A DNA stretch of 64,000 nt from Raillietiella orientalis (Eukaryota): contig JAYWIR010000004.1 of NCBI GenBank assembly GCA_036172245.1, positions 1,178,001-1,242,000 on the forward strand. Direction: 5' to 3'. The notes under the pieces are model-generated. The model did no database searches. It saw only the letters and a program-made list of their open reading frames with translations, and was not told the DNA's origin. Numbering within the stretch: the first letter of the stretch is position 1; each line of letters begins with the position of its first letter. Positions 13,721 through 61,960 of the stretch are shown piece after piece. The position numbers and the translations under genes were made by a program.

Positions 13721-13751
13721 CACTTTGATCTTAGCCAAAAGGCCAAGCGAT
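13721..13751 (-). pseudogene. U2: 5' fragment of U2 snRNA (about nt 1-34, with a 3-nt deletion)
   Basis: The minus strand reads ATCGCTT-GGCCTTTTGGCTAAGATCAAAGTG versus canonical U2 ATCGCTTCTCGGCCTTTTGGCTAAGATCAA(A)GTGTAG. Similarity stops before the GTAGTA branch-point recognition sequence is complete. Confidence 0.85.
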
Positions 13752-19785: not shown

Positions 19786-21699
19786 GCGGGACCGTTGGCG
19801 GGACGCCTCCTGGTGCCGGTGTCTCTCTGGAACACGAAGGGGCTGGGGAACCTCTTGAGATGGCGATGTCTCTCTACCCGCCCCGCCCCGAGTAGCTGGA
19901 GGCGGTCGCGAGCTGGCGGTCGCACACTCTGCGCGCGCGCCACCCGTTTGCCCGGCCGTGTTCGGCGGCCCCTTCCCCCAAGCATTTTCCCCGCCTCCAT
20001 CCCTCCAGGATACTGCAGCGAAGTTCGAGCGAACGCGGCCTCCCTGCTCTGGAGCGGATGCGGTCTCTTCTGTCTTTTCTTCTGTCACATAAGCTGGCGA
20101 TCGTGCCCATTGCTGCTTTCGTCACTCCTACGATCGAGTGTTTCGGCTGGTGCCATTGTTGTTGTGATTGTTACGTCAGGCGCGCTGGCGCAGCCACTGC
20201 GACGATCGTCTCGATCGTTGTTGCGATCGCGCTTTTGGTGCGAATGGCCGCAGTCCCCCCAAGGGACCGGTTTGCGTCTCCCTAGCACCTTTCGGTGTGA
20301 CCACTTGAGGTGAGTCCGAAAGTTGGTCCTGGATGGCCTCAGAATGAGGTCGCAGCCCACCTCGTTTCTGGCGATCGAGCGCGCGTGGGGAAATTCCGTT
20401 CCAGGTAGCCTCCCTTCCCTTCTTAATAATCCTCGGACGAGAAGTAGCACCTTCCGGCAAAGAGTTCCTGGACCAATCGACCGTACGGGAATCCCGCCCT
20501 ACGGAGCTCGCCCCCTGTTGTGAAGGGATCGGATAGCCCTTGGTGCACCCACCTTAGTTCGATTCCACAACGGCTGGATCCGTTGCGACTGGATTTCGGC
20601 GAAGACTGGTCGATGGCGCACCTATCGACGGGCCAGACCACTAACAAAGACCGGCCATGTGGTATTCAAATGCGGATGCTGCGTGGCTGTTGCTCCTTGT
20701 AACATGCAGCAGCTTTCCCGATCATTCTGCTCGTGCAGCACCGGAGATGAGCAGGCAGAATCGGAGCAGAAGTCGGCTGATCGGAGGACCCTCCCCTCTT
20801 CACCCCCCGGGACTCTTAAGGAAACGCAACGCCTTGAGGTGCGATCACTGATCGGCCGAGTGTGGCTGAAGCGCGCGCGCCTCCTCGAACGCATTTTGTC
20901 GTAGGCACAACGGGCAAAGCCAGGATAAGAAGGAAATTGTTTTCTTGGTTCTGAAGCGGCACGACGTAAATCGAGTTCTTTTCCTCTTCGAAACCTCCGG
21001 CGGATTCGCGAGGTGGCATTTTTCGCCCCTCCCTTCCCCCTTCATTCTCTGGGAGCCGACTCGGGAAGTCACTGTTTCCGCGTGGCGAATTCAGTGTCCT
21101 CGAGCGGAAGCTTCTGGATTCGTTAAGCGGAGGCCGGCGTGAGACCGACTACACCTCATCGGGAACGACAGGAGGGAATTCACACCGAAAAGGAGATTTT
21201 CGTCACTCAGTGGCCCTCCCTGTCAAGGGGCACGGGGTGCCGCTCGGTCTGCTCGGGAATTCGAGACCTGGGGCGCATCAAGCGGCTGGAACGGCGATGG
21301 ATTCCACCGAGAGGGATTCGTGGCGACTGCGGCGCACTTTCGTCCCGCCGTTGGGAGCACAGGTGCGCATGCGCGCACGCACTTCGGCTGTCCCACACGG
21401 TGCCCCAATTCGGCAGGAAGGAGTGGAAAATCGAAAACTCGACGACGTCCTCAATGACACACTGACGGAAGAAGAGCCGGAGGGTAACAGGGGGAGCAAT
21501 GAAATGCAGACCGGACGCGCGGGCACTCCGAACGCGTGTGTGCTGTCCGCACACGCGAAGAACTGTGTGTTCTCGCAACCAGGTAACACGCCCACTCGTC
21601 TCCCGTCTCGGCCAGTGGAGTTTTCGTGATCGTCATACTGTATCAAAGATCCTGACGAAGTATGATTTCAGGATCTTCGATGACGAAGCTCATCCAATA

Positions 21700-22650
21700 A
21701 TGGAGATGGAAGATGGGAGGGGGGGGGGAGCACCGTGCCACCTGGTGCCATCTCCACATCACGCGCAACTCCCAAGACCAAAGCATAAAAAGTCCATCTC
21801 GGCACGAATTACTGGACCTGCTGGGATTACCCAACAGCAAACTCCGCACCGTCGCACAAAGGTACACGGGTCTTTCAGCATACGCGGGTTCGAACCTCGC
21901 GTTTACTCTGCTGTTTGGTCAGCTGATAATGCGTGCCCAGGGAATGCCCTCACCTGTGCGTCGGAATATCGACAGAGCACGTTTCGAAGCAAAAGTTGCA
22001 CACCGTCGAGCGCATCCGGACGAGCGGGGGCCGCCTGTTGCTTGACCGTCACTCAGCAATAAATTTGATTCAGTTTGCTAACGGGAGTGTTCCCTGGAAC
22101 GGATACGCCTAGAGCAGGCGTGACGGGACAAACAGAAAAGTGTTTGCACATGCTAAATACATGCTTTTTCACTTTCTTGAAACGCACTTTTGGCGTCCTT
22201 GAGTGTTGCCCTGCCCGGCTTGCCCTCTTAGATTCCGCCGCACAATCGTGTGTGCGTGAGATTCAGGAATCTTCCAGAGGGAGACCGTTAGGATGTTGTT
22301 CTGAGGTCGCGCTGATCCGGAACCTTCGCCTCAGGGGCAGGTCCTCCCTTTCGTCTTCCCGTCTGCAACGGCTTGCGGATGTGGGGCGACACATAACGGT
22401 CTCCCAAGGGTGCCCTTGAGCGGAGGAAAGTAACGCCAGTCGCTGCATGCAAGAAAGACCCCCGACTTGAGTACGCTGCACACTCCGTGTTCGGGGGAGC
22501 CTGATGCAACTTGTGATGGCACGACGTGGTGCCAGACAACCAGCCAAGGTCGCAGAGCGGATTGCGGCACGAGCGAAAGAGGTCGCACATAGCGGGGAAT
22601 CCGCTGACCGTTGCTTGGCAACGCGGGCACCCAGATCAGAGCCCGCAGAA
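21700..22650 (-). mobile_element. Highly decayed C-terminal part (Zn knuckle/RLE region) of an RLE-type non-LTR retrotransposon
   Basis: Frame-shifted pieces SGVFLACSDWRYF (cf. G..RFADWRFIHRAR of NeSL/Utopia), SRCRREDEREDLP (cf. CRRC..ETL.H) and LWSWELRVMWRWH (cf. terminal I.WSR.IW..H) occur in the expected order. Confidence 0.4.
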
Positions 22651-23073
22651 CTGGATCGTTTCATCGATTTCTTAGCGACCGATCCAAAGATTATTCATGA
22701 CAATCCCCATTCCCGCCTAGGCACGTTGGATCTCGTTTCTGGTAGCTACTGAGAGAGCCTCCCTTCCCACTCTCGTCAAGCGCGAGGACGAGGAAACGGA
22801 AAAGAGCAGATTGCAAGATTTTGACGTCCTCCGAAAAGACCTGACGCCCCCCCCCCCCGCTGTCCCTCTCTCCCTCTCTTAAAACCGAAGTTTCATGCCG
22901 AGAACGTCGCTGGGAGAAGGGAGGAGAACGAAAAAAAGCGCGAGAAGCATACAAGCGACGGAGCAGCGCTCGAAGGCCGTCTAGAGGGCGCAAGAAGGGA
23001 GAGGGGGGAAGACATCCGCACGCGCACACGAAAGGACAAACAGACAAGCAAGCAGACGCTCCTGAGGACTCAC

Positions 23074-23180
23074 CTCTCTGTTGCTGGCGCGCGAAAGCTC
23101 GCGCAGCGGCTGCTTCACGCAGGCACGAAGGCTGCCGGTTGACCCACGCTCGCTGTGGAAGGGTGGACGCGACTACTCAG
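23074..23180 (-). promoter_or_regulatory. Putative non-coding first exon / CpG-rich promoter of Ig gene 1
   Basis: Perfect donor AG|GTGAGT at 23074/23073 inside a CpG-rich segment. A matching acceptor CCCCTTCGTGTTCCAG| lies at 19827/19826, 41 nt before the ATG. The exon's 5' boundary is approximate. Confidence 0.4.
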
Positions 23181-23879
23181 CGTTTGTGCTCCCCTTGCGC
23201 ACGCGCGCAGGTGGTGGAGATGCTGCTGCTGCACTTCCTCTCCGCCCACACTCTCTCCTCTCGCTCCCACCTCCCTCCTTGCGCTCTGGGAAGAGAGGCG
23301 GACCTTTGCACAACGGGCGAGAGTGCGCAGGCTGCCACCCATCGGGTCGCCGTCATGTTGTAAGAGACGCCTGCTCGAGCCACGAGGGATCCACGAGACT
23401 CCTTACGATAATGCAAAAAGGACGGGAGGGAGGGATCGAGCCAATCGGACTGCCTGCGAAGCGATGCAACTGTCTGGCCGCAGCGGGATCACTGATCAGC
23501 CTAAGGGAGGAAGGAGAAGACGGGGTGGGTGGGGAAAACCCTGCAGGTGCCCCGGAAGTTTCCATCGTTGCTAAATGAGACCATCAAGCAGGTGAGAGAA
23601 TGAGGAGGACACGAGGGGACAATCAGGGTCTCGAGAGGGAGGATGCAACGCCTGCCCCCGTACCCCACACGAGCGTCACCCACCCATAGATGGCTCCGAA
23701 CACGCATTCTTCCTGCTCGAATCCGTTTTCTGGAGGCAAAACGGGAGGAGAGTCGAAAGGATGGGATCTCATTCCTCGAACCCGAAGCATGTCCGAGCGT
23801 CAGCGGCGGACGGTGGAAGCGAGGGTCATCTGTGACGTGACCTCTGGTCTCCCTGTTTCGCGCCCCCCCAATGCGTATC

Positions 23880-24870
23880 CCGGGGCCACTTCCCGACCCT
23901 GGTTCCTCCCGGGCTCGGGGCAACTCCGTTCGTCGGCTGGGTGTTTGGTCCGATGTCTCCATTGCGCCGGGCAGTTGGCAAGGAAGACACCTCGCCGATG
24001 GATGAGTCGTGGAACCTCACGTGGCCTTGTACGCTCCTAGAATTCGCCTTCTAAAGAAAGCTCTCTGCCCCCGTCGTGTCAGAGGAATGTGGCCAGACAG
24101 AGCTCCTGCGAACGGGACGCCTCACGAGTGAACCTCTAGCTCTCTGGTCCAGTCTCCAGGAACCGCCTCTGGAATCCCTCTTGATCGGTAGCGATTGGCA
24201 AAGTCTCCTTCCCTTCTTCGACTGACCCTCCTGATTCCGAACGTTTCCTCTGAGCAGCATCCCTGAAAGGACAGGAATCGATCGGACCGCCCTCCATTGC
24301 GTGAACCCTCGCAAGGCCATGTCAAGGAGCTGCTGCGTTTCCGGACAGGGAAGACAAAAAACCATATGGGTACTTTTCACTGACCGAAAATGGGGGACGG
24401 AAGGATGGGGTGGTGAAATTCTAGAATGAGGATGCGCACTTAGGTATCCGCCGCCATCGTTCCCGGATGGAACGCAAATACCTGAGTATTGGCACCTGTG
24501 GCTGGGGGGCTCAGGTGTGCGCGCATTCGCTCGATCGGTTCCTTCGCTCGGAAAAATCCGGGAGCTCTCGGCAATAGGAGCGCACAGGTCACTCTGGTGG
24601 TAGTCAGCCACATGACCTGCCATCCTGAGCAACAGCGACCAGAGTTCCAAACCTCTCTCTTGAAGCTAGCAGTGACACGGACCGTATCTTCCGCTGACCG
24701 GATCCCGCAGTTTGGACGTCGAGACTCGCCGACGCATCCTCGCAGAAATGCGCATCTTCACGAGATTTTTTTTGTTGTTTACCGCACCCGTCGAAAAATA
24801 CTGGCGCAAGAATCGCTTTCTCGCGGGAAGACTGATTTGCATCTCGTCGCCCCGCGCCGGCGTAGGTGAT
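23880..24870 (-). mobile_element. Highly decayed reverse transcriptase region of an RLE-type non-LTR retrotransposon
   Basis: Frame-shifted pieces DRFLSFQGCCSEETF..RRREGDF..GIPEAVPGDW (cf. QKGFL.FDGC.EH.F..ARR..AFGSVPH) followed by RRGVFLANCP and GREVAPGYA (cf. RGVKQGCP; V..LAYADD). Confidence 0.4.
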
Positions 24871-32300: not shown

Positions 32301-34849
32301 GCTCCATTCATACGGACTATTTCTCTTACCGAATCCCAAGACGTGACTACAAAAAACATATTTGCTTCCCTTTTACTTTCAAAATAGCAGCAGTTCGGGG
32401 TAATCAGCAGTGATCTAATCACTGGAATTTCTAAATAGCATCGAGCACGGAAGGGAAAAGAAATTAGACCAGTAGGCACCTCGGCATACTGGCTAACTTT
32501 AAAACTACTCTCTTCAAAATCATCTTAATCAACACACATCTCAAAAATCTTCAGAAAGGTGAAACTAAGAGATAGTGAGGGTAAGCACATTAAAACTTAA
32601 CATTCCACATTTACTACAGTTTGGGTTCCCTCAGCTGACAAAACCAAATATAGAAGTCACATAAAGAAGTTTGGGAAATGAGAGATCATCAGCGGATGGA
32701 GAAACGTGCGTTTTTAAGCAAACTATGCAAAAATCAAACCAAGTTCTCTTCATTAGTGATCTGCAATAAAAAATTCAAACGATCGGGTATTTTTGAAAAC
32801 CGGACAGACCGAAATGAATGCAACCTGGGAAACTGCTTTTCCATAGAATGAATCAGCGTCTTTGGTTAATTATGTGGCGACGTGTGTTTTGGTGAGATGG
32901 GGGTGCGCTTTTTTTTCCTCCGATGGTTTGACTACGGCTCTTTGGTTCCAACGCGGCACGTTCGCAGGATGAAGAAAACTGCATTCGCGTATCCCGATCT
33001 TTTGGATAGATAGTAAGACGCCTATAAAACATCCTGAAAGTCATGCTCGTTTGTAGAAAGCCTTGCTGCTTTGGGAACGAGAACGGTTACTGCTTTCGGG
33101 GAAAATTGGTACCGGGATTGAAGTTGCATGGATCAAAGGGTAGTCTTGTATGCAACTTGTTTCCAAAAGCCCCGCTCACTTCACAACCTTAATTGGATTT
33201 CTCCCTTCCGAGTGATGACACCCATTTTCTTTCTCTGACAAAAACAACCACCGCTCGAAAAAAAGAGAAATGTCCATGCTAATCGGCCGACCATCTGAGG
33301 ATACGTTGCTTATTGATGCTTGCTACCATCATCAAGGAGAAAATGTCTCTCTCTCATTGAAGTCATTTTTTTGCTCTTTATGGGAAAAGAATGGGATCGA
33401 ACGATCCCATCTGTTCCTATTTTTGCACCGAAAGTAATCCCTATGGAAAGGCGGAGCATGTAAAGTGTAACCTCGATGTTTACTGGGAAACATGTCCCTA
33501 AAGGGGGAGGTGCACATAGGGAAATAGGACTTTGAAGGTCGCGATCACAGAAAAGGAAAAAAGGGGGGGAGAGGGAATGTTCTCTACGAAAGAAAGTTTT
33601 TGAGAGGTTGCGGAATCGACGCCTCATCGGATGAGAACGTCGCACTGGGAAACCAATATGCAGGCGTCCTGCGGCAGCAGAAAAAGACGACTGCAGTTGT
33701 CAACTCCGGGGCGTTTCACCGACTTGCAAGGGAAATTGGATTCGTACGTAAACTGAGGAGGGGGTTTCCCCTGGAAGCTGATGGCTTTGGGCACCCCCAG
33801 GATCCTTCATTTGGCGTCCACGCCTGCCGACGGCGTATTGAGTGCCCTGAGATATTCCCGGTGCGCGACCGCGAGCGAACCTTCACAAGTGAACGGGGAG
33901 AGAGGATGAGGATGACTGTGCGCTCGGGGAGTAGGGAGGGACGGTTTCTAAGTTTCAGCATTTTGCCGGAAGGATAGCACTTTTTGGTAGGGGGAAAAGG
34001 GCCAGTGAGCCCGCTCATGAATTAGGAAGATTTTTCTTTTCTCTCTACAGCCTCAGCCCCTTGAACAGAGCTTCACTTCCGCGCACGTCGATGCAGCACG
34101 AGGTGCAGCGGGGAGAGGTGAAGGCGTAGCAGCGACGAGGAATGGGGGGGGAGGGGCGTAGAAGCCCTTCCGGCCCTCCTCTTAGAGCAACCCTTCCTCC
34201 TCCTCCTCCTCGCTTCTTTTGCTTCTTTTTCCTGTCCTTCCTTTTGGCTGACGGTGATCCCGCCGGAAACGCTGGCTACAGCGACGTCGGCGACGTCCGG
34301 CTCGCGACCCGCGCCTCGTTTCCATGGAGAGGAACCTCCGTGCTCTTTCCTGGGGCTCCCGAATCCGGAATCGCCCACGCCATTCCTTCCGGGAGAGATT
34401 CCTGCAGCTTCCTGGAAATCCGACGCTTCTGCAACAGTGAACTGAATGCGAGTTCCCATTTTATTGGATGTTTTTTTCTTTCTTTCCGCCTTTCTTTCGG
34501 AACGAATGGGGAAGCGGAGGAGGAGGAGAAGAGGAGCTCCCCTCCTTCTTCTCCTCTCTCTATGCTCTTTCTCTGTCTCTCTCTTTTTTTTTTTTTCTTT
34601 TCTGGTGGCTGCTGCCTGCGGTTTCCAGCGAGCGCCGCTGCGAGAAACCTCTACTCCGGCGAAGACCCAAGCGGAGGGTGGGGCCTGCACTTCCGCCTGG
34701 CCATCCCCGAATCCATTTCCGTACCAAGAGAAAAAGGAGTTGACGTTCCTCCGGGAGGAGCGGACAGAACTGGTGGGAACTCGACCGCGTAACGGGACGG
34801 CTGCAAGGGCTGCTGCCTCCCGATCGTCTTGAGAGTCCCGCGAAGGCAG

Positions 34850-37800
34850 TCACATGTGCAGCACGAGGTCCTTCGCCAGACCCTCCTTCTTGCGTAGCTT
34901 CTGGAGAAACATTTCCCGATCTGGAGGGAAGGGTAGAGGAGGAGGGAGGGCACGTTTATTCCTGGGACTGCAACGGTCCTCTTGGTTACCTTCGGAGGTC
35001 TCCCTCTGCAGCCGGAATAGGAACATCATGGACACCGCGACGGCAACGAGGAGTATTCCTACAAACACCGCCTGCACGGCGCTGCCGGGGCCCTGGAAAC
35101 GGACCAAGGTCATTCTTGTCCCTTCTGCTAGTCTCCCCCTCTTCCTCCTTTCCCCTCCCTGAGATAAGGGTCGCGAGTCCTCCCTCGCGAACCCACCGCT
35201 GCTGTCGGGATCGATCTCGACCTGCTGGAGCGGAAGGGGGGAGGAAAGAGGAGGCCACTCTTGAAAGGAGCAGCCGGGGGCAGCCGAAAGCGGGACCAGG
35301 AGAGCGAGACAGCCCGGGAGCGATGAGTCCTCCTCCTTCTCCTCTCGCGGTCCTTGCTTCGGTCCCAGAAGAAGTTTTTCCCCATGCCTTGCCCTCTAAA
35401 GGCAGAGGGAGGCAGGGGAAATCTTCTCTTGTTTCCACAGGTCCGACCCTCAGGGACGCGGCAGCGCCAGGGCAATGGAGAGGAGAGGGTTCTCTCCATC
35501 GTGCCCAGTCCCCTGGGAACGCAGTGACCTCGACTGTGGTCCCCCTCGCTCCCGCCGGCGCTTAGTTCGGTTTAACTGGGTAGGTGATTTTGGGAGGTGG
35601 GGAGCCCCGGGGGTAGCGTGATGATCGGCATGATCGGTCGGCTCCCTAGAACCTGTGCTGAGGGCGGGCTCTCAGATTGCAAACGGAAGAACCTCCTTCG
35701 CTGCGCGGAGGGAGCGGCGGTCCCTTCCCGCTGCCAACGTGCTGCAAACCGCCTTTCTTCCCTCTGGCGAATCGTTCGACCCAGGGCCCAACTGCTTTCT
35801 CGATACTAAGGAACCCACACCTCTTCTTCTCGGATGCCTCCTGCCTTCCTGCCTACATGCGCCATCGACAAAGCGCGTGCTTCCCTTGCAAATCGGTTGC
35901 TAAGATGCGGATGCTAGAGCGGCGCCACTCGTACAAACGGATTCCGTTCTTCCCTACAGCCCCTTTCATGTGTGTCTCTGTGTGCACGCTTTTGCTGTTT
36001 TCGCTCCCTTCCTGAAGCTCCCTGCTCACGTGGACGCTACTTTACTACCCTTACCACCCTCCGTTCGTCAGAGAGACCGAGGGGACGGGACCCTTAGTAC
36101 TAGGTGGTACTTACAGTCTGCCTCTCACGAGGAGGATCGATCTTCTGAGACGCTACTTTCATTCCTTCTGTCCTGGGGTTCACTCGGAGGTACAGCTTGT
36201 GCTCGGGGAAAGTGGAAGGGCTGCTACCGCCTCTCGCCACGTGCTTCCATCCGGAACACATATAGGTGCCCGTGTCTTCCTTCCGTGCATCCTAAGAGGA
36301 ATACGGGAAGAAAGTTGATCCCAGTTTCGACTTTCTTTCATTTGAAAACAACAACAAGAAGATGGGAAACGTTCGAGTCACTGTACTCCGGAGACAGAAA
36401 AATGGAAGGGGGCCATTACGATAGTCTCTCCCTCCGGCAAACTGATTTGGGGCAAAGGGGAGACCGAAAGCGAATCTGCTGGATAATATGCACTCGAGGT
36501 GCAGCTGAACAAGAGTTTCCTCGTGAAAAAAGAAGAAAAAATGAGCTTTCCAAGCAAAGCTCGGAATCCAGGATTCCCAACAGCACAAGCATGAAGTTTT
36601 AAATGGCGCAGGTCACAGTAGAAAGGCCAAAGTCCCTCCTTGGGAAGTCTTGCAGTGGGAAGGAAGGAAAAAATCGGTTTCTGAAAGCAGTTTCTAATCT
36701 TTGATTCTTCTAATGAGATCTGCTTAAGCTCCATCCGGCCAACGAAAATATCAGCTCTCTTCTGTTGGTTCCGAAACTCTTAAAGCACATTACCAAGTCT
36801 GGTAGGGCATCATTCGAATTAACTGAAATATCCATCAAGCAAATCCTACGCATTTGCGTGTGACCAATCCGCGTGTGCTCGAAGCGTTCAGACTCTGATC
36901 TACCATACCTGAGAAGAGAGAATAATGGCCAGGACCGTTAAAGATTTCGTGACAGATGCAATCGGATACTCAGGAATTACCCCAAATCACAGTTTGATAT
37001 AATGAGTACTTTGGAAAGATTGAGTTCAATCTTGCCGATTTCTGGAGATGCACAAAAAGGTACCTCCACATTCGATCCGCAATACGATTCTGCAAATAAA
37101 CGTGAAAATAAGGAAGTTAGCCTTCAGGAACTCAATTTCTCCATTAGAAGATAAGTACAGGTAAAAAAAACATCATCAAGTTATGGAAATGTATACCTTG
37201 GGGTTATGTCTTGAACTCTTTCAAAACAAACACAAATGTCAAAAAATTCTGGGCTTCTCGAGATATTAGGAAAACCCATATCCAAAAGAATTACGTATAA
37301 CATGTAACAGCTACGATTTTTAGTTTTTGATAGTTTTGACAGTTTGCGATGGAAGAATACAATCGAGAAGTTTATCACGTTGAGATCTCTTCTTACAGAT
37401 TTCTGCGACAATTTCTAATGTACCAGTACTTTCAAGTTCAAAACAATCATTTGGAATACGTAATAGAATCAGTTTTATAACATCGTAGTGCCATTCTTGG
37501 GATATCTGATATTATTTTTGGATGGAGACAATGTAGCTTTACTGTAGCAATGGAATGTTAAGGAGTTTAATGTGGAAAATCGTTTTCGTTGATTTAAAAA
37601 TTGTGATTTTTTTTTTTTTATCTGAAGACATTCCACAATTCTATTCGACATGGAAAGAAGAAAAATCCAGAAAACACATCTTTCTGCGGTCTTACGATTT
37701 ATTTTATCCTTTTCTGGCATGGTCATCTGTAAATAACAAATCAGAATTAAAATGAGAGTTGGCTGAAAAAAACATAGAAGGTGAATCGAGTTAATCTTTT

Positions 37801-51200: not shown

Positions 51201-51730
51201 ATAAATCCTCCCGTGTCTGAAACGTTTTGATGCAGATAATAGTAAACCATATTTTGGACTGACTGGACAAATGGATCAATTGAAAACTCATTCCAGACTA
51301 ACTATGAAAATGCATAGAAAGCTTTATGCTAGACCATTTTTCAGCATACATGAGGGTATTTAACGAGAGAAAGATCGTGCTTATCGCATTAAAAGAAAAA
51401 AGCGACAAGTCGTTTGCATCACGTATCAGAATAGACTGTTTTTCCAAAGTGCGAAAGCGAGCAACTCCTAGGGATGAAATTCCGCTTCTTCCTTACTGGA
51501 ATGCCTGCCTCTGGCCTAGTAGTACAATTCTTTCAATTTTTTTCAGCACGCATTTTTCCGCTTGTTGGACCCTGGTATTTCTCATTAGGTTGACGTGTCC
51601 CACTTCGTTTCACCTTTCCGAAACAATCGATCTTGGAGTCCTATTTTCGAAATGGTAGTCAGTGCAGTGCGACTGGTAATTCTGTTGTTGCGTTTGTCGA
51701 CTTTTGCGTGCCCGTGCGAGGTAAGACGCG

Positions 51731-54077
51731 ATGAACGAGTACGGGAGCAACACGTTGCTGCTAACGAACCTTCCTGATTGCATTACAGAAAGAAAGATCA
51801 AAGATGTTTTTCAGGAAATCGTGCCAGTGCTTCGATGCTATCTAACTCCGAAGTATGGTATGTATGGGACTGTTTGCGTGAAAGGCATGCATCGAGTTGG
51901 GAAGTGGGGATTTGTGTCCGAACGTAAGCGTGCATTCGGTATGTGTTTGCGAATGGTGTTGGCGTTCGGCATTGCGCTTTTCTGTTTCGTTTTTGCCACA
52001 GCTAAGTTTGATTTTCCTTCTTTCCTTTTGTTAGAGGGGAGAAAGTTGCGGGTGGCCTACGTAGCATTCCGCTGCAACGAAGATGCGCTGAAAGCCAAGC
52101 AGAATTGCAGTAATCTGCTAATTGATGGGAGAAAGATCATTGCAAAATTTGCTAGAAGACATGGGAAGGAATGCTCCCCGAAGAAGAATTTGAAGATCAG
52201 AGTTCACCCCCCAGCACAGCCACGTAAACCGTTGTTGAAAGCCAAAGTTTGGAATAAGAAAGCGAGGCTGATATTGAGAAATATTTCTTTTAAGGTAGGT
52301 TTTCTTGAAGGTAATTTGCAATCAACGAGTTTGTCAGTGTACAAAGGAAGATGTGCAAAACTTGCTTGCTCCCTTTGGCAAGGTGTTGGAAGTGAATTTG
52401 CTCCACCGGGATGATGGTAGCATGGTAGGCTGTGGCTTTGTGCAAATGTGCAAAGTACCAGAAGCTAGCAGAGCTCTGAAAGCTTTGCATGGTACTGTTT
52501 TCAAAGGCCGTCTGCTGGCTGTGGACTGGGCTGTCCCCCAATCCAGTTTCTTATCGTCAACACAGACGAGTGCAGATGAAACTCTGAAAGTAGACTTGCC
52601 ACAGGCATCAAAGCCAAGTAGTGGAAGGTTGATCTCAAGCAGCGAGGAGCACTCTGAGGCTGAAACTAGTAGCACTCTGAAAGAATGTGCTGAAGATGAA
52701 TCCGATGATTCTGATGATAAAGAGGACACCGGTGGGACACTGCAACCAATGCAGACAAAACCGTGAGTTGCGTTTTTCGTGGTTTTGAATTTCTTATGAA
52801 AGGTGCATATTTAAGTTTAGGAAGTCTGAAGATGTACACAAAGGCTGCACCGTCTTTGTTCGTAATGTACATCCCGATACGAGTGCAGAGCAGTTGTGTG
52901 GTTTGATGGTTCAGTTTGGTGCTGTGAAGTATGCTCTACCAGTTATTGATTCGGTGACGGAACATCCTCGAGGCACTGCCTTTGTTCAGTTCCTGGTGAG
53001 GTTGCCCGACCATGTTTCCTTTGAAGGTGGTCTACATCAGGGTGTCCTGGATGTTTTAGAACAAAGAAGATGCCGAAGTCTGCTTGATGGCAACTGAGGA
53101 TGAACTGATGCTAAATGGCAACGTTCTGGAAGTGTTGCCAGCACTAAGCAGGGAGGAAGTCCAGAGGAAGTTGACGAATTCCTCGAAACCGAAGATTGGC
53201 AAAGACAAGCGCAACCTGTACCTGGTGCGAGAAGGCTGTACGTATCGCTATGTCGGTTGGGTGTGGAAATCTGCTTTTGGCTGCTTCAGTGGTTCGTGCG
53301 AATACGCAAGCTGCGAAAGGAGTATCCGCTCATGATCTCCAGTTGCGTGCTCATCTGGAAATTTGGAAACGCCAGAAATTGCGAAACCTGCACATTTTTA
53401 TTTCCGATTGCAGACTGTGCATTCATAATTTGCCAGCGACGATGACGGACCGCGAACTGAAAGCGTTGTTTTTGCAAAGTGCCCCTTCCGGAGCGAGGAT
53501 CACGGAAGCTCGTGTCATGAGGAGTGGGAGCGGCCCAAGTGGACCGTGTTTGGGTGCATCTCGCGGATACGGCTTCGTTGCATTTGCCCAACACGAGCAT
53601 GCACTGTGCGCCCTTCGCTCTCTGAATAACAACCCGAGCGTGTTCAGTGAGGCTCGGGTAAGCAGCCGTGTGACCGCCGTTTCGTTTGACTTAGCGCTCG
53701 AACCTCAGAGACCGATCGTGGAGTTTTCCCTGGAGAACCGTAGCAAATTACTCGCCCGTCAGCGACGGCTGGAGAAGAGCAGATTGGCGCAGAAGCTGGT
53801 TGGACCGAAGGATGCCAAAATGCCAGAGAAAAGAGGCGGTCCTGCGTCAGGGCAGTTTCGAAAGTTGAAAAGATTCCAGTCGAAGGCCGGGAAGAGTTCG
53901 CTTCCGAGGAAAGCGGACCTAGCAACCGGATCGCATACCGGTTACTTGACCACTGCTGGAGGTCCGAAAACTCTTCCGTCGCACGTAGGTCCGAAAATCC
54001 GTCACCACGCTCGGAAGTCATCGCAGACGAGCCAAGCGAAAAGAAAGCATTCGTTTCGGAAAGGCAATAAAAGATGA
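51731..54077 (+). CDS. RBM28: RNA-binding protein 28 (Nop4 family, 4 RRMs). Exons 51731-51857, 52035-52294, 52338-52762, 52821-52995, 53060-53237, 53290-53657, 53709-54077
   Basis: KKARLILRNISFK, GCGFVQM..GRLLAVDWAVP, TVFVRNV..TEHPRGTAFVQF, DKRNLYLVREG, KLRNLHIFISDCRLCIHNLP, SRGYGFVAFAQHEHALCALRSLNNNP, RPIVEFSLENR, GPKIRH. GT-AG introns. Confidence 0.95.
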
Positions 54078-56592
54078 TGGCATCCGTGTGTTTTTGCGGG
54101 AACGCGGTTCCCGGGTGCGACGGGGGTTATCACCCGGGTACGCCCGGGGCGTTTATTTATAAACTCTACATGCGTGGTACGAGGCCCCACCACGGCCGTA
54201 AACACAGGACCTGTCGGGACACCGGGACGCAGCCCGGGGGTGCGAGCGGGCGTTGCAGTGCTTCCGTTTTGATGCTTGCAGCTGCCGTGCGCGTGGAAAG
54301 TCTCGGGAAGTGGACGAAGGGCACAGTTTCATCACGGATGGGGCATCTTTTTCCCTTTGCGGCGTATTTGTTAAGGTTGCGGATGCTTTGGCTTGAAATC
54401 GCACGGTTCTTGATGCTTGCAGCAGAGGCTGCTTTGCTTTCGTCGACTGTCTTCGACCTATTGCGAAGTTTTTTCACGTTTCGTTCGTGTAAGAGGAGAT
54501 ATCCGAAGGCTGATTTTCCTGTAAAGTCGCGAGATTGGCCATCCATCCAAGAAATGTGGACCGTTTCTTTGCATGCGTGCGTATCTTGGACGAAGACGCC
54601 AGGGATAAATAAATGAATGGACGACTTGAAAGTTGGGTTCCGTGTGCTGCGTCGCGAAGGCGCGGGATTGTGTGTTCCCACCGTTGCTTGGTTTCTCCTT
54701 TGGACTTTTGGAAGTACCACTTGCTTAGAATAATAATTAACGAGTTACACTATTAGAAAGTCACGATGGAATGAGGCTTCGCCAGAGTGGATCCTTCATG
54801 AGGAGTGCTTCCTTCATCCTCCGCGACGCATACAAATCACTTGAAAGGTTTCCGTCTCTAAATAGCCTCCAAATCGAACGGTGTGTCTAAGGAAACCGAG
54901 ATCCCTTGCCTACCTTGAGCACCGCAGCATCTCTTCGTGGTATGGAGTTGGAGCTTATCGTCAACGTGACTTCTCCGCGTGGTTACTGCTAACATGGAAG
55001 TCCAAGCCAATTCTTTGGAAAACGAATCCTGGAATCGGGAGCGGTTTTTGAAAGACTTTGTTCACGGTCGCCGACTTCCCATTAAATGGCGCTGACACCT
55101 GGTGTGAAAGACTGGTATCCCTCGCAAATGGCATTCTCATCTAGGTTTTACCATGAATTCCATACTTGATTGAGAATACTGGAAGTTCTCCTCCATTCTT
55201 CGGGATATGGAGAAAAGTTTGGAAGCAATGTCTCTGAATAGGAAGAATGTGCGACGTGCCGTCGCTAGATGAAATGGTCGAGAAGTTACTTTCAGGATGA
55301 GGAACATTTTGAACATGGAAGGCGAAGACGGCGCTTCCTCCAATGCTTCTGCCAACTCGGCGTTCCAACCACCACCACGTAAGAAAACGTTGCAGCAGAA
55401 GGCAAAAAGCAAAAGCGCTTACGGACTGTGCAACTGTTGAGGTTGATGGCCAGTGGTTGCATGTCTGCTGGCCATGATGCTTGCGAAGATTTGGAGATTT
55501 TGCGTGGCTGTTTGTGGAATGGATAACTTTCACGGAGATCGTGTGATTCGAATTCCACTGTGCGTCACAAAACACAAATTTGCGGATGTGTCATGAATTG
55601 CCAGGAGACGGCATGCATCATCGATAGGTAGCCAACTTTGGGCGAGAGTACTGTACACTTCTTGGTGATGAAATATCTGCTACCCGATGAGTACATTTGC
55701 ATCGTGCACATTTGCGACGTGTGTCCGAAATGAAAGCGTTCCTCCAAGAAACCATTCTCCAGTAGCAAAGTGAAATCAGGGTTAGCAAATTCCCGTGCTA
55801 TTACAAACAGTATAGAACTTGAGTTTATCGGTTGATTAGGAATACGAGCACTTGGTGTGCCGGCATCCTAAAGCAGGGTAACCACACTATCAAGGATTTC
55901 AGTTCTTTGCAATGCACAGCGTTCTGATAGACATCGAGATTTTCCTCTTGTAAAGGAAGATGGGCAAGTTCATGAGCTTGTTTTGTTTCATTGCCTTTCC
56001 AGCGGAAGAGAGCCATTTCTGATGGAACATTCGTTTTCATGCCGTTCGGTCGTGATTTTTGCTGTTGGACGAGCGTGATGCTGGGACTGGATGTTGTCTC
56101 TTTTGGGGGTTGAGCTAATCGTCGGTTTGTTTGTAGGCTGAATGTAATAACAAGTCACACGGGAAGCCATGCAAGGAATCGGATAATTGTTCGTCAATTT
56201 CAAATGTGTGATGTTCCATGCTTACTGCTGCATATGCGAAATTACGATTACGTGGTTGGGGTTCGCATGCATCGCGTGCACTTGGTTGTACGGGTGGGGT
56301 TATACAACACGGTTGCGTTTGCAAGCTCACCGAGAATGTGCCTCTGCGCGCGTGGTTTTGTTCGTACACTGTACAGCATTATTTCGTGAATAATTACAAC
56401 AGTGCTAGTTATCAGGGACAAAGGAAGACCAAAAGTTGCATTTTTTCGTATTCATCTTTTTGCATGTGCAAGCTGGGAGACTTGTTTTGCAAATGCTGCG
56501 TGAAACTATGAATTGACTTGCAATTCCAGATCATCATGTTTCTTAATCTTTGCGTGCTGAAAGGTTGATTTTCAAATCCAAATCGGCATCTA

Positions 56593-57652
56593 ATGGGAGA
56601 TCTATCGGTGCCTGCCAACGTGAGCATCCCTTTGGCGGATGAAGATGTGCAAGGTAATGATTAGTTGCTGATTGTCTAGAAGAGTTTTCTCGATGAGAAG
56701 TGAGTTCCTCCTGGATGCATTCGTGATTTCGGATTCACGTTGACTAATGAGATGCAGCAGTGGGTTTTTTGACCAGACCTCCTATAGTATGTGCTTGCAT
56801 GCTGTACTTCTGATGGAATTTTCCTTTCCTTAACAACAGTTTCTACCACTTTCCACGCAAACCTAGTTTGCTTTTGGAACCATTGCATTAGAACTTAGCA
56901 TTTGTCATCTTAGTATTCCATGAAGCATCAGAAATTTCCAAGCTGTCTCCAGTCGGATGTTTTTTTCCTTTTTTTTTCTTTTCAATTTCTTTTTCCCTTA
57001 TCTGTTAAATCAAATTTGTTGTTACTAGCTGAAATCCATTCAAGGGGAAACAATTTCTGTCGACTCTCTAGAGACAGGAACTTGTGCTTTGACAGTGTCA
57101 ATTTTCTAGAAGACACTGAAAGTGAGCTCATATCCCTCAGTGTGCATCCAGGCGATGGAATGAGCATGGAATCTTTGTCTAGCTCATCCCTGACTGAAAA
57201 CAGCAGCACGTGTCAGTGTGAGTACAATACAGTGCATCTACCTATAATGTGCTTGTTTTTTCTCTTGAAATGAAGTGCCAGTGCATGCTGTATGTTAAAA
57301 CAGAGCTATCCAGAATTTTGCAGAAATCTGGCCTCATCAAAGAATAACCACGTAGATTTGTTGTTTCCTTGTTAGATGCAGATCAAGACATCAGTGCTGA
57401 TGAACATGAAGAAAAGGTGCGCTTCATTTCGCAAGTACTGGAGTTACAGAAAACTTTGGATGGTCTTGTTCAAAAGTATCCATTTCTATCCTGTAAAACT
57501 GTTCTTTTGCAGATTTATCTCAGAGAGTAGATAATGTAAGGGAAGAAAATCTGAAACTCAAGTCAGAGAATCAAATACTTGGACAGTACATTGCCAACTT
57601 GATGTCTGCTTCCTCTGTCTTTCAGTCCACTTCAGTCCATACCAAAAAGTAA
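56593..57652 (+). CDS. SCOC: Short coiled-coil protein (SCOC/UNC-69). Exons 56593-56653, 57029-57217, 57376-57462, 57513-57652
   Basis: [14 protein letters not shown] and [58 protein letters not shown], the conserved SCOC coiled coil. Exon 2 boundaries are less certain. Confidence 0.93.
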
Positions 57653-58594
57653 AAGAGATTTCCGTAATGAATTGCTAACTCATTTCTGTTCACTTATTAG
57701 ACTCTCTTTGAAGCGTTAAGATGCAATTGTATCTCCAAGTTGCTGTCAGTTATGAAGCTAAGCAATGAAGATGAAGTTTCAGCTGTGCAAAATATCCTAC
57801 ATCAAAGATTGTTTTCATTTGAATAAACTGTTGCAGGAAGCTCAGCATTTTGTTGCGATGGCTAGATGTTGTTCCTTTAAGCATTCCTTTTGGTGTTGTA
57901 ATTCTTGCATTATTGTCCTTGAAAATTTTTGAAAGCGAAGGTATTGGGAACAGACAATTGTCTGGTAGTAGCATAATTCAAACTGGGCATTACATTGCCA
58001 TAATTTAAGTTGCCACACAACAACATCGGTACACGAGCATGCGAATAAGAGTTGGTCCTATTTGGTTATTCTTGTTCTTAGGGACCATAAGAGAATATGT
58101 GGGCTAATCAACAGTGCTTCTACAGGTTGCTGAAGTCTTTTATTGCAGGGAACAATGTGATCACACAACAAACAGTTACAAATGAAGATGGTCTCCCTCA
58201 AGTCAAACTACGTTTTTCGATTCCTGCTTCTGCTTTTTGAACATTAATACCCAACTCGACCTCGAAATCGCTGACGGTTATCAAGCTGAAAAAGAAGTTC
58301 CACATCGCGGAATCTTCTCATCTACCAAGGACCGCTTGCATAGATAGAAAGTATTATATAGGGCATAGCATTCTTTGGGAACCGAAGGATGGCGCTCCTT
58401 TAAGCATTGCTTTGGTGTTTTCTTTACCTGGTGACAAAATTATTCATCAAAGCCATGAAAACTCTGGGAAATGCTCGACCTCCTCAAACAAAGTTCCTGC
58501 TTCCAAGTCTTCTCAACTTACGTTAAGATGCAAAAAAAAATTGGTAAAAATTGGGGTTTCTCCATCTTACCACTTGGGCGCAGTCCGTCTTTAG

Positions 58595-58606
58595 CAGACA
58601 CCTTTT
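58595..58606 (+). repeat. Target-site duplication copy (CAGACACCTTTT); second copy at 59713-59724
   Basis: An identical 12-mer flanks both ends of the element. Its four T's merge with the element's poly(A) tail on this side. Confidence 0.85.
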
Positions 58607-58771
58607 TTTTTTTTTTTTTTTTAAAGGCCAGTAGCGACCCCACGAGGAGATCGTTACTATTGGCCTAGGACGATGGTAATCCTTGGGTTCTTCTTTTTCT
58701 TCTGTCTTCGCTGTTTTCCTTCCAGCTTTTTTTTTTAAGAGTTTTCTTTTTTTTGGTTCGCTAAGTACCTC

Positions 58772-59510
58772 AGAGCCGGTCGCGTGCCTCGCGGCGCGCG
58801 TGGCTCTTTTTAAACATTAACACACTGTTTTGTTTCCACGCCTGTCCGCGGCAACCCGCAGGGGGGGGCGTGTAATTCTTCAGTGTAATATTCTTCAGGA
58901 TAGGGGGCACCCCGGGATGGGGTCCGCCCTATTGAATCCAGGAAGGGCTCGGAGTCCGTTCCTCTCACGCTTGGGGAGGGATCCCCCCGGACGGGGGGGA
59001 TCTCACCTCCCACCCTGGTTGTCTCCGAAGGGGAACCCCGAAGGGAATCTCTCCTTCCTCATTCTCTCCGGAGGGACACCCCCCCTTGCGGGGTGGTGGT
59101 CCTCTCCATTTCAACTTCTCCGAAGGGAACCCGGAAAGGATCCGCCTCTAGGAATTTCTTCTCCGGAGGGAACCCGCAAGGGAACCGCTCCTTTATTCAC
59201 TCCTCTGAAGACAACCCCCACAGGGGTGCTTCCGAAACTCAGAAGGGGCGCTGCAGCTTCCCGCAGGGAATCGCTCTCGCTTAGCTTCTTTCCTTTGTAC
59301 ACACTCTGTGAAGAGGCAACGACTCGGAGGGTCCCCCCAACAGGGGGAGGGTCCTTTCCTTTGAACGACTGGAGAGGTGCCCGTGAGGGCTCCTGCTCCA
59401 TCTTGAAACCGGAGGCGGTCCCCCCGGTGACGGGGGTCCACTCTCCTTTGCACACAGGAGGGGGAACTCCCCACTCCTTTATTCCTGGGAGGACCCGAAG
59501 GTCGACTCCC
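58772..59510 (-). repeat. Array of ~16 short GC-rich hairpins, many with a shared basal stem and 5' bulge
   Basis: Examples: GGGAG-TC-GACC-TTCG-GGTC-CTCCC (59510-59487), TGGAG-C-AGGAGCCC-TCAC-GGGCACCT-CTCCA (59400-59370), GGAG-C-GGTTCCC-TTGC-GGGTTCC-CTCC (59191-59165), ATAGGG-C-GGACCCC-ATCCC-GGGGTGCC-CCCTAT (58932-58900). Confidence 0.85.
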
Positions 59511-59646
59511 ATTGTTCCGGCCTTCATCGGGAGGCCGCCGGCTTTATCCACCGCCGGGGCCACGCCCGAATGTCTCGGCCAACCAGCGCCGTTGCAGGAG
59601 AAACTCGGAACCCAAACGACGCAATGGCGTCAAGTTATCTGCCGAA

Positions 59647-59701
59647 GTATTCGAACCCGCGACGCATGGTGCCACGCGCGGAAGCCTTAACCACAAAGCC
59701 T
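59647..59701 (-). promoter_or_regulatory. RNA polymerase III type-2 internal promoter (A-box and B-box)
   Basis: A-box-like AGGCTTTGTGG(TTAAGGC) at 59701-59691 and B-box GGTTCGAATAC at 59657-59647, with tRNA-like spacing. Confidence 0.75.
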
Positions 59702-60249
59702 CCGACGCGGGCCAGACACCTTTTGGTGTCGTATCGTAACCCATCACAAGCCCTTGTTTTAGGGTGCTGAAAGTCTTCATATGACTGGGGCATGCCCACG
59801 CCGAATTGTACAACTATGTACTGAAAATGCTCGTTTGGATATTCTTCTGAACGTTTAAATGCTGGCTCCCGACTGAATTACCGCGGCAGCCCAAGTTCAT
59901 TCTTCATGCCTGCAGGCACATACTGTTCAGACAATGCAAACGTATACGGAAAACCTACAAATTCGAGCTTTCCTGATTTGTCCATATTCTGCACTTTGGA
60001 TCACACTTTCCACAGGGAAGTTTTTCTCCCGTCTTCGGTTACGATTGCAGTACAAGAGAAGAAACGGTTTCCTTCTGGTGCGTTACTCAGGAAAAGACTG
60101 CAGGAAGTTTTCGAGCAGTTGTATCTACCATTCTGAAACTCAAGTGGCTACAGATAAAATGGAGTCTGCGTAGGAATTAATTGTAGAAGAATCCACCTAC
60201 ACCAATGTTGAATAGCTCAGTTTTTTTGGCTGTTTTGGCAATGATTGCT

Positions 60250-61960
60250 GCTTCCATGTAACCATGGGAAACATCATCCAAAGCTCTACAAGGGTGCCAG
60301 CGCTAAAAGTATGCAAAGAGATTTTGACAGCTCTGCCAAGCTCGTATCTGGGCACGCTAGGCGTGTCGGCCTATGCAGACAATCTTCTGCTGCTGCTTCC
60401 CGGGTCCACCCGAGCTTCTGCTCTCGAGTTCTTCGAGCTGCTCAGCCGCGGGACAGACCTGGAGGAGAACAGGGCGAAGTCGTCGATGATGACAATTGGA
60501 TGAACGTGAGCTGGACGGCCTGACTGGATCCGCTTGAGGATCCCCACGGGCAGTACTTTAAGTAACTTGGCGTTCCGTTGGGGGACTTCCGCGTAGCAAT
60601 AGCCTGGTCCGATCATCTCCAAAAGGTGGAGTTGGCGATCGGCCCGTTTCGGGACGACAAGTTTTACTTGCTGGAACGGGCCGCGGTGTGGAACGCTTTC
60701 GTGGCCCTCCTGCTTCGCCCCCTACTTTTTTTTCGCCGCGCCCCACTCCAAATCAAGAAGAGGACAAAGGTCCTCCTGAGAAAAGCCCTGTAGGGCACAC
60801 AGATGTCCCACGTCCGTCTTAAAGACTTGTGCTCTCCACGCAGGGACGGTAGACTAGGCCTCCTGACGTTGGAGCACATGCAGAGACAGCTCCAAATTGG
60901 CAAACTCGACCTTGTGTCGACATACTGGGCAGCGCCATGGTGCGCCCCTACACGCCTCCTCGCCAGTAGGGCAACCAGCTGCAACGGATTGACCTCGATC
61001 CTTGTGGCTAACGACCACAGTCTGAACCATTGTTGTTTTCAGCTGCGTGACTTGGTTGCCCTGGTGAGAGAAAATAAGTGGATCTCCTGTCTCCTCTCGA
61101 ACTGGACAACCTGGCTTCAGGAGTCAGTTTCCGCGCGGACTAAGATCAACGGCTCAAACGATGTGGACTTCTCCTGCCTCCGTAGAGGCAGGTACTATGG
61201 ACACCCCCTGCAGAAGATCGTTTCCAACCAACAGAAACTTCCGTGGGCTTCATTTACTCTCCTTGCCCCAGTGCTGCCCGAGCTAGAGAACCCTAGGGAC
61301 AGCCAGGAATAGGCATCGTGGGAAGTGTACTGCATCATAGGAGGCAGGAAAAAACTCTTGAATGCGTGGACTACTCGGGGGTCAGCGGACGCTACAACCC
61401 CGAGTTCCCGCCTAAAGGACTTGTGCGCTGGGGCGAGCTGCTCGGCATACCCCCAGAGGAAGTGAAGTGGCCCCCAGCGCGTTGCGACAATGGTTGCTCC
61501 TCCTTGGATTGGCAGAAGACGGAGTTGCTAGAGTTACATTGGGGACTCCTTTGCAGAGCATACCTCTCCCACTGAACATTAGGGAGTGCGGATGCCAATT
61601 GTGCAGGCTGCGGTGAAAGGGAAACCTTCCCGCACCTGATCATCGATCCCGCACCCGAAAAACATTTTCCGTCAATTCCTGATGCGGGACGCTTTGCCAG
61701 CAGCTGCGTGTGTAGCAGTTCTCTGCAGCATACGCGGAATCCTGGACAAATGGTATGCGTCGATGAGAGGCTGAAGTAGCCGGAATGCCATTCGCTGGCA
61801 GCCATCTTAATGGAGAAGGCTTCACTATGGCTCCAGCTACGCACACTACGACCGGCACTTGTCCGCATCCAAACTCGGATGCAGAGGACCCCTCGCGGAG
61901 AACTGATTCCTTGCCTGCACTCCCCTCCCTGGGAGACATTGCCCTCCCCTTTATTTTTTT
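60250..61960 (+). mobile_element. 5'-truncated, decayed L1/Tx1-type LINE ORF2 (RT C-terminal half + Zn knuckle)
   Basis: VSAYADNLLLL (YADD motif), FK*LGV (FKYLG, ~60558), LCSPRRDGRLGL (P...GGLG), LHWGLLCRA, and CAGCGERETFPHLIID (C..C....ET..H, ~61600-61650). Multiple stops. Confidence 0.8.

What the first reader, a model, noticed from the sequence alone, without database searches (positions are those of the whole stretch)
58603..59712. Intact 1.1-kb Pol III retroposon whose body is almost entirely tandem RNA hairpins
Seen: a 12-bp TSD (CAGACACCTTTT at 58595 and 59713), a tRNA-like head with A/B boxes at the very 5' end, a terminal stem-loop followed by A20, and no T4 run on the transcribed strand across 1.1 kb, although the opposite strand has many. 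Known: tRNA-derived SINEs are usually a few hundred nt long, and Pol III stops at T4 or longer. Inference: this is a young, unusually long Pol III-transcribed non-autonomous retroelement (or a retrocopy of a long structured Pol III ncRNA) with an architecture I do not recognise from described SINE families.
Basis: partly seen in the sequence, partly recalled or inferred. Interest (0 to 1): 0.88.

Follow-up and report, generated by a model that had tools for sequence, protein, structure and literature searches.

The report
Long hairpin-rich SINE-like retroposon copy
This is a recently inserted, non-coding, about 1.1-kb retroposon in an arthropod genome, belonging to a multi-copy repeat family; it resembles a SINE but is unusually long because its middle is an array of GC-rich hairpin units.

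Summary
The element is real. It lies on the minus strand, 59712 to 58607: 1090 nt plus A16-20, between exact 12-bp target-site duplications. It is non-coding. Its first 66 nt carry A-box-like and B-box motifs at tRNA-like spacing. It ends in a 42-nt stem-loop followed by poly(A). Contigs of two other public runs hold it. One run gives 109 matching contigs over the element but none over the adjacent flanks. Five of them break exactly at the 5' end into unlike flanks, and others skip 78-178 nt of the body. So it is an interspersed family with a variable number of internal units.

Two claims are overstated. ARAGORN and Rfam do not recognise the head as a tRNA. Only 6 of 13 body units fold clearly better than shuffles, although local folding overall gives z about -6 on both strands. 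The missing T4 run is weak evidence: 37% of mononucleotide shuffles and 2% of dinucleotide shuffles also lack one.

Best reading: a LINE-mobilised, probably Pol III-driven, SINE-like retroposon with a quasi-oligomeric body, longer than any of the 175 SINEBase families (75-662 nt). Pol III transcription, the partner LINE and absence from Dfam/Repbase could not be tested. Interest is moderate.

The parts
59713..59724 (-). 5' target-site duplication. It reads AAAAGGTGTCTG on the sense strand. The empty site would read CC/AAAAGGTGTCTG/C.
   Evidence: Exact 12-mer, identical to 58595-58606.
59641..59712 (-). Head, 72 nt. A 7-bp closing stem encloses two hairpins. It carries an A-box-like motif (59691-59701) and a B-box motif (59647-59657) whose starts are 44 nt apart.
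   Evidence: Fold -35 kcal/mol, z -2.76, 1 of 200 shuffles as stable. The B-box motif is unique in the window. Not called a tRNA. Five contigs of run X2 break exactly at 59712.
59511..59640 (-). Unique 5' body with four local hairpins.
   Evidence: Local fold domains 59609-59636, 59566-59608, 59533-59561 and 59517-59530.
58873..59510 (-). Array of 13 degenerate units of 31-102 nt. The typical unit is GGAG, a GC stem, a tetraloop, the returning stem, CUCC, then an A/U-rich linker.
   Evidence: Alignment of 12 units with 41% mean column identity. Per-unit folds. nhmmer matches the body to its own reverse complement at E 8e-8. CTTCGG occurs 5 times on the sense strand against 0.51 expected, and 0 times on the antisense strand. 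Contigs of other copies skip 78-178 nt here.
58772..58872 (-). 3' GC-rich block with three hairpins.
   Evidence: -45.5 kcal/mol, z -3.48, 0 of 200 shuffles as stable.
58667..58771 (-). A-rich internal stretch with A8 and A10 runs and purine-rich sequence. Its length varies between copies.
   Evidence: Sequence. Joints 58699>58743 and 58702>58772 with replaced letters in run X2.
58625..58666 (-). Terminal 42-nt stem-loop directly before the tail. It is a candidate recognition site for the partner LINE's reverse transcriptase.
   Evidence: z -3.57, 1 of 200 shuffles as stable. The role is inferred.
58607..58622 (-). Poly(A) tail, A16, or A20 if the four A of the duplication are counted.
58595..58606 (-). 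3' target-site duplication.

Best explanation
This is a full-length, recently inserted copy of a non-autonomous, LINE-dependent retroposon family that is SINE-like in organisation.

Likely mechanism. Steps marked 'inferred' are not shown.
1. The element is transcribed from its own first base by RNA polymerase III, using the internal A-box-like and B-box motifs of a degenerate tRNA-related head (inferred).
2. The transcript runs through a 1-kb body that has no T4 terminator and ends in the downstream flank. The first T5 lies 56 nt past the tail (inferred).
3. Its 3' stem-loop plus poly(A) is used by the reverse transcriptase of a poly(A)-type LINE (inferred).
4. Target-primed reverse transcription at a TTTT/GG nick produced the 12-bp duplication. 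The duplication is shown; the mechanism is inferred from established knowledge of LINE endonucleases.

The body is a quasi-oligomeric array of about 13 degenerate GC-rich hairpin units. Their number differs between copies, and this accounts for the unusual length.
For: - Insertion hallmarks: exact 12-bp duplication, A16-20 tail, and a target that begins AAAA.
- No AATAAA or ATTAAA in the last 570 nt. The only two lie at element positions 230 and 516.
- No Pfam family for any of 6 open frames at E up to 0.1.
- Head motifs: the B-box motif is unique in the window and lies at +56. GTGG-N25-40-GGTTCGANT matches once against 0.09 expected. The A-box-like motif lies at +12, so the box starts are 44 nt apart, as in tRNA genes (consensus and spacing recalled).
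- Family evidence. Run X2 gives 109 contigs at 80% identity or more: 10 at 99% or more, 14 at 95-99%, 37 at 90-95% and 48 below 90%. They cover the element, but neither the bins to its left (58200-58583) nor those just to its right (59736-59863). Five contigs break exactly at 59712 into flanks that agree only 0.48. Joints skip 78, 111, 122 and 178 nt within 58975-59155.
- Run X1 holds a 955-nt contig over 58747-59697 with 15 mismatches and 8 gaps.
- Structure: local-fold z -5.8. CUUCGG occurs 5 times on the sense strand only, and 0 of 1000 shuffles reach that count.
Against: - ARAGORN and the Rfam tRNA model do not recognise the head. ARAGORN gives a call only at -ps80, and that call starts inside the duplication.
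- There is no transcript evidence of any kind.
- Absence of T4 is only weakly non-random.
- Hairpins fold equally well on both strands. They could therefore be DNA-level palindromes and not a selected RNA structure.
- Three of the five CUUCGG lie in paralogous units, so they are not independent.
- The length is outside the range of described SINEs.
- No partner LINE was identified. The only LINE remnant in the window shares nothing with the tail.
- Only one copy is in the window, and the genome is not held.
- The organisms behind runs X1 and X2 are coded and unknown.
Confidence: 0.6

Rival explanations
1. A Pol II-transcribed composite retroposon of the SVA type. The tRNA-like head would be a vestige. 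The GC-rich variable-number repeat array would be the core. Mobilisation would be by a poly(A)-type LINE acting on a polyadenylated transcript.
For: The length is 1.1 kb. The internal units are GC-rich and variable in number. It has a poly(A) tail and a duplication. The head is not recognised as a tRNA.
Against: There is no AATAAA or ATTAAA within 570 nt of the tail, while two AATAAA lie inside the body at positions 230 and 516 and would favour premature cleavage. The A- and B-box motifs sit at exactly the position and spacing expected for a Pol III start at nucleotide 1. The family's 5' end is discrete.
Confidence: 0.2
2. One of many retropseudogenes of a cellular, functional, long structured non-coding RNA gene (a master gene), and not a self-propagating repeat.
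For: Strong local structure and sense-strand-only UUCG motifs.
Against: No Rfam family matches at the gathering threshold or at E up to 10 beyond chance hits. Copies span a wide identity range and differ by whole units, which is typical of a repeat family with many sources. The 3' stem-loop plus encoded A tail is a retroposon feature.
Confidence: 0.12
3. A 5'-truncated copy of a LINE (its 3' UTR), or a chance or assembly artefact.
For: A decayed reverse-transcriptase remnant lies 0.6 kb away at 60303-61129.
Against: Five X2 contigs share the same 5' end. There is no coding remnant inside the element. The tail has no match to the neighbouring LINE remnant. Independent runs hold the sequence.
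Confidence: 0.04

Closest known systems
tRNA-related SINEs (head-body-tail organisation as defined in SINEBase, PMC3531059; passages read)
   Same: Internal A-box and B-box motifs at the very 5' end, a non-coding body of unknown origin, an A tail, target-site duplications, and many interspersed copies.
   Different: It is 1090 nt without the tail, against 75-662 nt (mean 253) for 175 families. The head is too degenerate for ARAGORN or Rfam to call a tRNA. The body is a hairpin-unit array.
CHRS/CHR-2 'quasi-oligomeric' SINEs of cetartiodactyls (passage in PMC3531059)
   Same: [quoted passage not shown] Family members differ in the number of repeats.
   Different: The CHRS motif is about 20 nt, while units here are 31-102 nt and many are self-complementary hairpins. 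The host is unrelated (a mammal against an arthropod). No sequence comparison was possible.
SVA-type composite retroposons of hominids
   Same: Length of 1 kb or more, non-autonomous, a GC-rich variable-number tandem-repeat core, a poly(A) tail, target-site duplications, and mobilisation by a poly(A)-type LINE.
   Different: SVA is thought to be Pol II-transcribed and has a canonical polyadenylation signal, an Alu-like part and a retrovirus-derived part. The element here has Pol III-type boxes and no terminal polyadenylation signal.
'Stringent' LINE/SINE pairs, in which the reverse transcriptase recognises a 3' stem-loop (abstract of PMC5135761 in the listing; eel UnaL2 recalled)
   Same: A stable stem-loop lies immediately before the 3' tail.
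   Different: The tail here is pure poly(A). No partner LINE with the same 3' end was found.

Membership tests
SINE (Pol III-transcribed, LINE-mobilised short retroposon) | Head derived from tRNA, 7SL or 5S with an internal Pol III promoter | tested here: inconclusive
   B-box GGTTCGAAT at +56 is unique in the window. The combined motif matches once against 0.09 expected. The A-box-like motif at +12 matches 7 of 9 specified positions by eye against a recalled consensus. No tRNA, 7SL or 5S match by ARAGORN or Rfam.
SINE (Pol III-transcribed, LINE-mobilised short retroposon) | Short length (described families are 75-662 nt without tail) | tested here: not met
   1090 nt without the tail, against the range quoted in PMC3531059.
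SINE (Pol III-transcribed, LINE-mobilised short retroposon) | Non-coding, non-autonomous | tested here: met
   0 Pfam families for 6 open frames of the element at E up to 0.1.
SINE (Pol III-transcribed, LINE-mobilised short retroposon) | Many interspersed copies with a common 5' end and different flanks | tested here: met
   109 X2 contigs lie on the element and none on the adjacent flank bins. Five break at 59712 into unlike flanks. Caveats: these are contigs of a coded organism, and the window's own genome is not held.
SINE (Pol III-transcribed, LINE-mobilised short retroposon) | Target-site duplication and A-rich or simple-repeat tail | tested here: met
   Exact 12-bp duplication and A16-20 tail.
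SINE (Pol III-transcribed, LINE-mobilised short retroposon) | 3' region shared with, or used by, a partner LINE | not testable with these tools
   The only LINE remnant in the window (60303-61129) has no match to the tail. No genome or repeat library is available.
SINE (Pol III-transcribed, LINE-mobilised short retroposon) | Transcription by RNA polymerase III | not testable with these tools
   No RNA data could be used.
tRNA gene or tRNA pseudogene | Cloverleaf recognised by tRNA finders or a covariance model | tested here: not met
   ARAGORN finds 0 in the window and 0 in the head at default and -ps settings. Rfam gives no tRNA hit in a 106-nt search at E up to 10.
Quasi-oligomeric SINE (CHRS-like architecture) | Degenerate motif repeated in tandem more than 10 times, with number varying between copies | tested here: met
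   13 units, of which 12 were aligned (U6 was left out as composite). Joints skip 78-178 nt in other copies. This is architecture only; homology was not tested.
SVA-type composite retroposon | Canonical polyadenylation signal upstream of the tail (Pol II transcript) | tested here: not met
   AATAAA or ATTAAA occurs only at element positions 230 and 516 of 1106.
5'-truncated LINE copy | Coding remnants of RT or endonuclease, and variable 5' ends | tested here: not met
   No Pfam hit. The 5' end is shared by 5 contigs.

The most novel reading that the evidence does not exclude
The hairpin array is not a by-product of slippage. It would be an RNA-level, sense-strand feature under selection: a variable-number scaffold of UUCG- and GNRA-capped stems on a roughly 1.1-kb Pol III transcript. 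Such a scaffold might recruit the partner LINE's proteins multivalently or stabilise the RNA. This would define a new architectural class of long Pol III retroposons in arthropods.
Probability: 0.12. Interest if true: 0.65.

Novelty: new variant of a known kind. Interest (0 to 1): 0.4.

Why it matters
If Pol III really transcribes and a LINE really mobilises a 1.1-kb element, it stretches the accepted size range of SINEs. It would also offer a natural case for asking how long a Pol III-driven retroposon can be, and what a tandem hairpin array contributes to RNA stability or to recognition by a reverse transcriptase. Practically, a young insertion with variable internal units is a useful marker for arthropod population and phylogenetic work, and a family that repeat annotation pipelines tuned to short SINEs would probably miss or split. 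If it is already in Dfam or Repbase, it is an ordinary annotation item.

Tried and rejected
- Copy search inside the window: blastn and nhmmer find only the element itself.
- Collection scans:
  - The head 23-mer gave 0 metagenome matches.
  - A 19-mer gave 1 metagenome locus and 3 bacterial loci that share only the 19-20-mer.
  - Two viral scans gave 0.
- Run search: no RNA holder is listed. Runs X3 and X4 laid nothing. No run covers the bins next to the element (58200-58583 and 59736-59863), so no empty site could be seen.
- Rfam hits at E up to 10 (NrsZ at 19.1 bits against a gathering score of 76.9, and others) are chance matches to GC hairpins.
- RNAalifold on the sequence alignment of units gave no consensus structure.
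- Counting perfect stems of 6 bp or more gave no clear excess.
- Whole-body global folds give z about -3 on both strands, so there is no strand asymmetry.
- The Atlas was busy once, then gave no taxon information.
- Paper searches found no description of such an element: by words, and by a 17-mer of the head. Only listings were seen, plus passages of PMC3531059. Supplements, including the SINEBase tables, were not opened.
- The search for homologous proteins with 60794-61309 found nothing.
- A telomerase-RNA or rRNA origin was considered. No template-like motif was seen by eye and there is no Rfam match, so it was dropped.

Full report
**What is there**

Read on the minus strand, the element runs from 59712 to 58607. 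It is flanked by the exact 12-mer AAAAGGTGTCTG (CAGACACCTTTT on the + strand) at 59713-59724 and 58595-58606. The T run 58603-58622 is 20 long. Four of these T belong to the duplication, so the tail is A16 to A20. The finding's start (58603) sits inside the duplication. Without the tail the element is 1090 nt and 58% G+C.

Exact 12-mer pairs 300-3000 nt apart are not rare in this window: there are 41 non-low-complexity pairs. The evidence for a true target-site duplication is therefore the placement. One copy follows the A tail directly, and the other directly precedes the head.

The empty site would read CC/AAAAGG..., which is a TTTT/GG nick on the other strand. This is the kind of site used by poly(A)-type LINE endonucleases (established knowledge, recalled).

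**The head**

- GGTTCGAAT (59649-59657) is the only match to GGTTCGANT on either strand of the window.
- Combined with an upstream GTGG at 25-40 nt, it matches once against 0.09 expected, and 8 of 100 shuffles have a match.
- AGGCTTTGTGG at 59691-59701 fits 7 of 9 specified positions of the A-box consensus (consensus recalled; comparison by eye).
- The two boxes start at +12 and +56. That is 44 nt apart, as in tRNA genes, with the A box about 11 nt from the first base, as expected if the first base is a Pol III start (recalled).
- The 72-nt head folds into a 7-bp closing stem around two hairpins: z -2.76, with 1 of 200 shuffles as stable.
- The head is not a recognisable tRNA. ARAGORN finds none in the window and none in the head at default or -ps settings. 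At -ps80 it forces a tRNA-Leu that starts 9 nt upstream, inside the duplication.
- Rfam finds nothing at gathering scores. It finds no tRNA, 7SL or 5S even at E up to 10 in 1.5-kb and 106-nt searches.

**The body**

With base pairs limited to a span of 50 nt, the element falls into 32 local domains covering 943 of 1106 nt. Its local folding energy is far below that of dinucleotide-preserving shuffles. The z-score is -5.8 on the sense strand and -6.2 on the antisense strand, and 0 of 40 shuffles reach it on either. nhmmer matches the body to its own reverse complement at E 8e-8.

From 59510 to 58873 I cut 13 units of 31-102 nt. The typical unit is GGAG, a GC stem, a 4-5-nt loop, the returning stem, CUCC, then an A/U-rich linker. 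Twelve of them (U6 was left out as composite) align with 41% mean column identity.

Folded singly, 6 of the 13 units (U1-U4, U9, U11) are matched by at most 8 of 200 shuffles. The other seven are matched by 21 to 199 of 200. So 'almost entirely hairpins' is too strong.

Other measures are less striking. Global folds of the body give z about -3 on both strands. A count of perfect stems is unremarkable. RNAalifold on the unit alignment gave no consensus.

There is one strand-specific signal. CTTCGG, the C(UUCG)G tetraloop motif, occurs 5 times on the sense strand against 0.51 expected, and 0 of 1000 shuffles reach 5. Its complement never occurs, against 1.1 expected. Three of the five lie in paralogous units, so they are not independent.

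**The 3' part**

After a GC-rich three-hairpin block (58772-58872; z -3.48) comes an A-rich stretch. It is followed by a 42-nt stem-loop (58625-58666; z -3.57, 1 of 200 shuffles as stable) directly before the tail.

AATAAA or ATTAAA occurs only at element positions 230 and 516. The tail therefore does not look like the product of a Pol II cleavage signal.

None of the six open frames of the element has a Pfam match at E up to 0.1.

**The T4 argument**

There is no TTTT on the sense strand. The eight runs of T4 or longer on the + strand all lie at 58607-58831 and are the complement of the A-rich 3' part. Absence of TTTT is seen in 745 of 2000 mononucleotide shuffles but in only 21 of 1000 dinucleotide-preserving shuffles. 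It is compatible with Pol III read-through but is weak evidence for it. The first T5 downstream lies 56 nt past the tail.

**Is it a family?**

Only one copy is in the window, and no genome is held. Two of four public runs hold the sequence.

Laid at 80% identity or more, run X2 (DNA) gives 109 contigs: 10 at 99% or more, 14 at 95-99%, 37 at 90-95% and 48 below 90%.
- They cover the element, but neither the bins to its left (58200-58583) nor those just to its right (59736-59863).
- 75 of them lie only partly on it.
- Five contigs break exactly at 59712 into flanks that agree only 0.48.
- Joints skip 78, 111, 122 and 178 nt between 58975 and 59155.
- Other joints replace parts of the A-rich stretch.

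Run X1 holds one 955-nt contig over 58747-59697 with 15 mismatches and 8 gaps. Runs X3 and X4 laid nothing.

This is what an interspersed family looks like when it has a fixed 5' end, copies of several ages and a variable number of internal units. The organisms are coded, so I cannot say how close they are to the source.

**Host and surroundings**

- A TAF7 exon (10990-11250; PF04658, 5e-34) is 69-78% identical to the best 120 of 800 hits, and all the named ones are insects.
- An RBM28-like gene (51.7-54.6 kb) is 41-51% identical to crayfish, millipede, tick and Daphnia proteins.
- The host is therefore an arthropod, perhaps a hexapod, with no close relative in the protein collection.
- The element lies about 950 nt downstream of, and antisense to, the last exon of a short coiled-coil protein gene (57515-57649; PF10224, 5e-17).
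- About 0.6 kb to its right lies a decayed, 5'-truncated reverse-transcriptase remnant at 60303-61129. It matches one database protein at E 3.6e-9, and that protein carries RVT_1. tblastn gives E 2e-18 and 9e-50.
- That remnant shares nothing with the element's tail.

**Interpretation**

The best reading (0.6) is a LINE-mobilised, probably Pol III-driven, SINE-like retroposon whose body is a quasi-oligomeric hairpin array.
- Shown: the insertion hallmarks, non-coding nature, family status, promoter-like motifs and excess local structure.
- Inferred: Pol III transcription, use of the 3' stem-loop by a reverse transcriptase, and the identity of the partner.

Rivals are an SVA-like Pol II composite (0.2), retropseudogenes of a cellular structured RNA (0.12), and a LINE fragment or artefact (0.04).

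**Comparison with what is known**

SINEBase (passages of PMC3531059) gives 75-662 nt (mean 253) for 175 families, so this element fails the 'short' criterion. The same paper describes CHRS, a quasi-oligomer with a roughly 20-nt motif repeated more than 10 times and variable in number. That is a direct architectural precedent. SVA (recalled) is a precedent for retroposons of 1 kb or more with a GC-rich variable repeat core.

Word searches and a sequence-string search found no description of this element. Dfam, Repbase and the SINEBase tables were not available. I therefore rate it a new variant of a known kind, with moderate interest.

Noticed in passing
window 60303-61129 (+), possibly to about 61650: Decayed, 5'-truncated reverse-transcriptase remnant with stops and frameshifts, 0.6 kb from the element. 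It matches one database protein (62% identity, E 3.6e-9) that carries RVT_1, and tblastn gives E 2e-18 and 9e-50. Pfam itself sees nothing. Its sequence has no match to the element's tail.
   Followed up: yes
window 57515-57649 (+): Last exon of a short coiled-coil protein (SCOC-like) gene, PF10224 at E 5e-17. The retroposon lies about 950 nt downstream of it in antisense orientation.
   Followed up: partly
window 10990-11250 (+): TAF7 (TFIID subunit 7) exon, PF04658 at E 5e-34. It is 69-78% identical to insect proteins, with no closer relative in the collection.
   Followed up: partly
window 51725-54616 (+): Multi-RRM gene resembling RBM28, with four frames matching RRM_1. The best relatives are crayfish, millipede, tick and Daphnia at 41-51% identity.
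   Followed up: partly
window 59715-59730: The insertion target is itself a small palindrome, GACACC-AAAA-GGTGTC on the sense strand, spanning the start of the duplication. This may be coincidence.
   Followed up: no
window 1-14000 against 18000-24000 and 34000-36000: Sharp G+C mosaic: 31-37% against 58-63% in 2-kb windows. The GC-rich blocks carry long stop-free frames on both strands with no Pfam match, apart from one weak Ig hit below cut-off.
   Followed up: no
window 59864-60055: The only flank stretch covered in run X2. One 151-nt contig lies at 59900-60050 with 3 differences. It is either a conserved sequence or another repeat, just left of the RT remnant.
   Followed up: no
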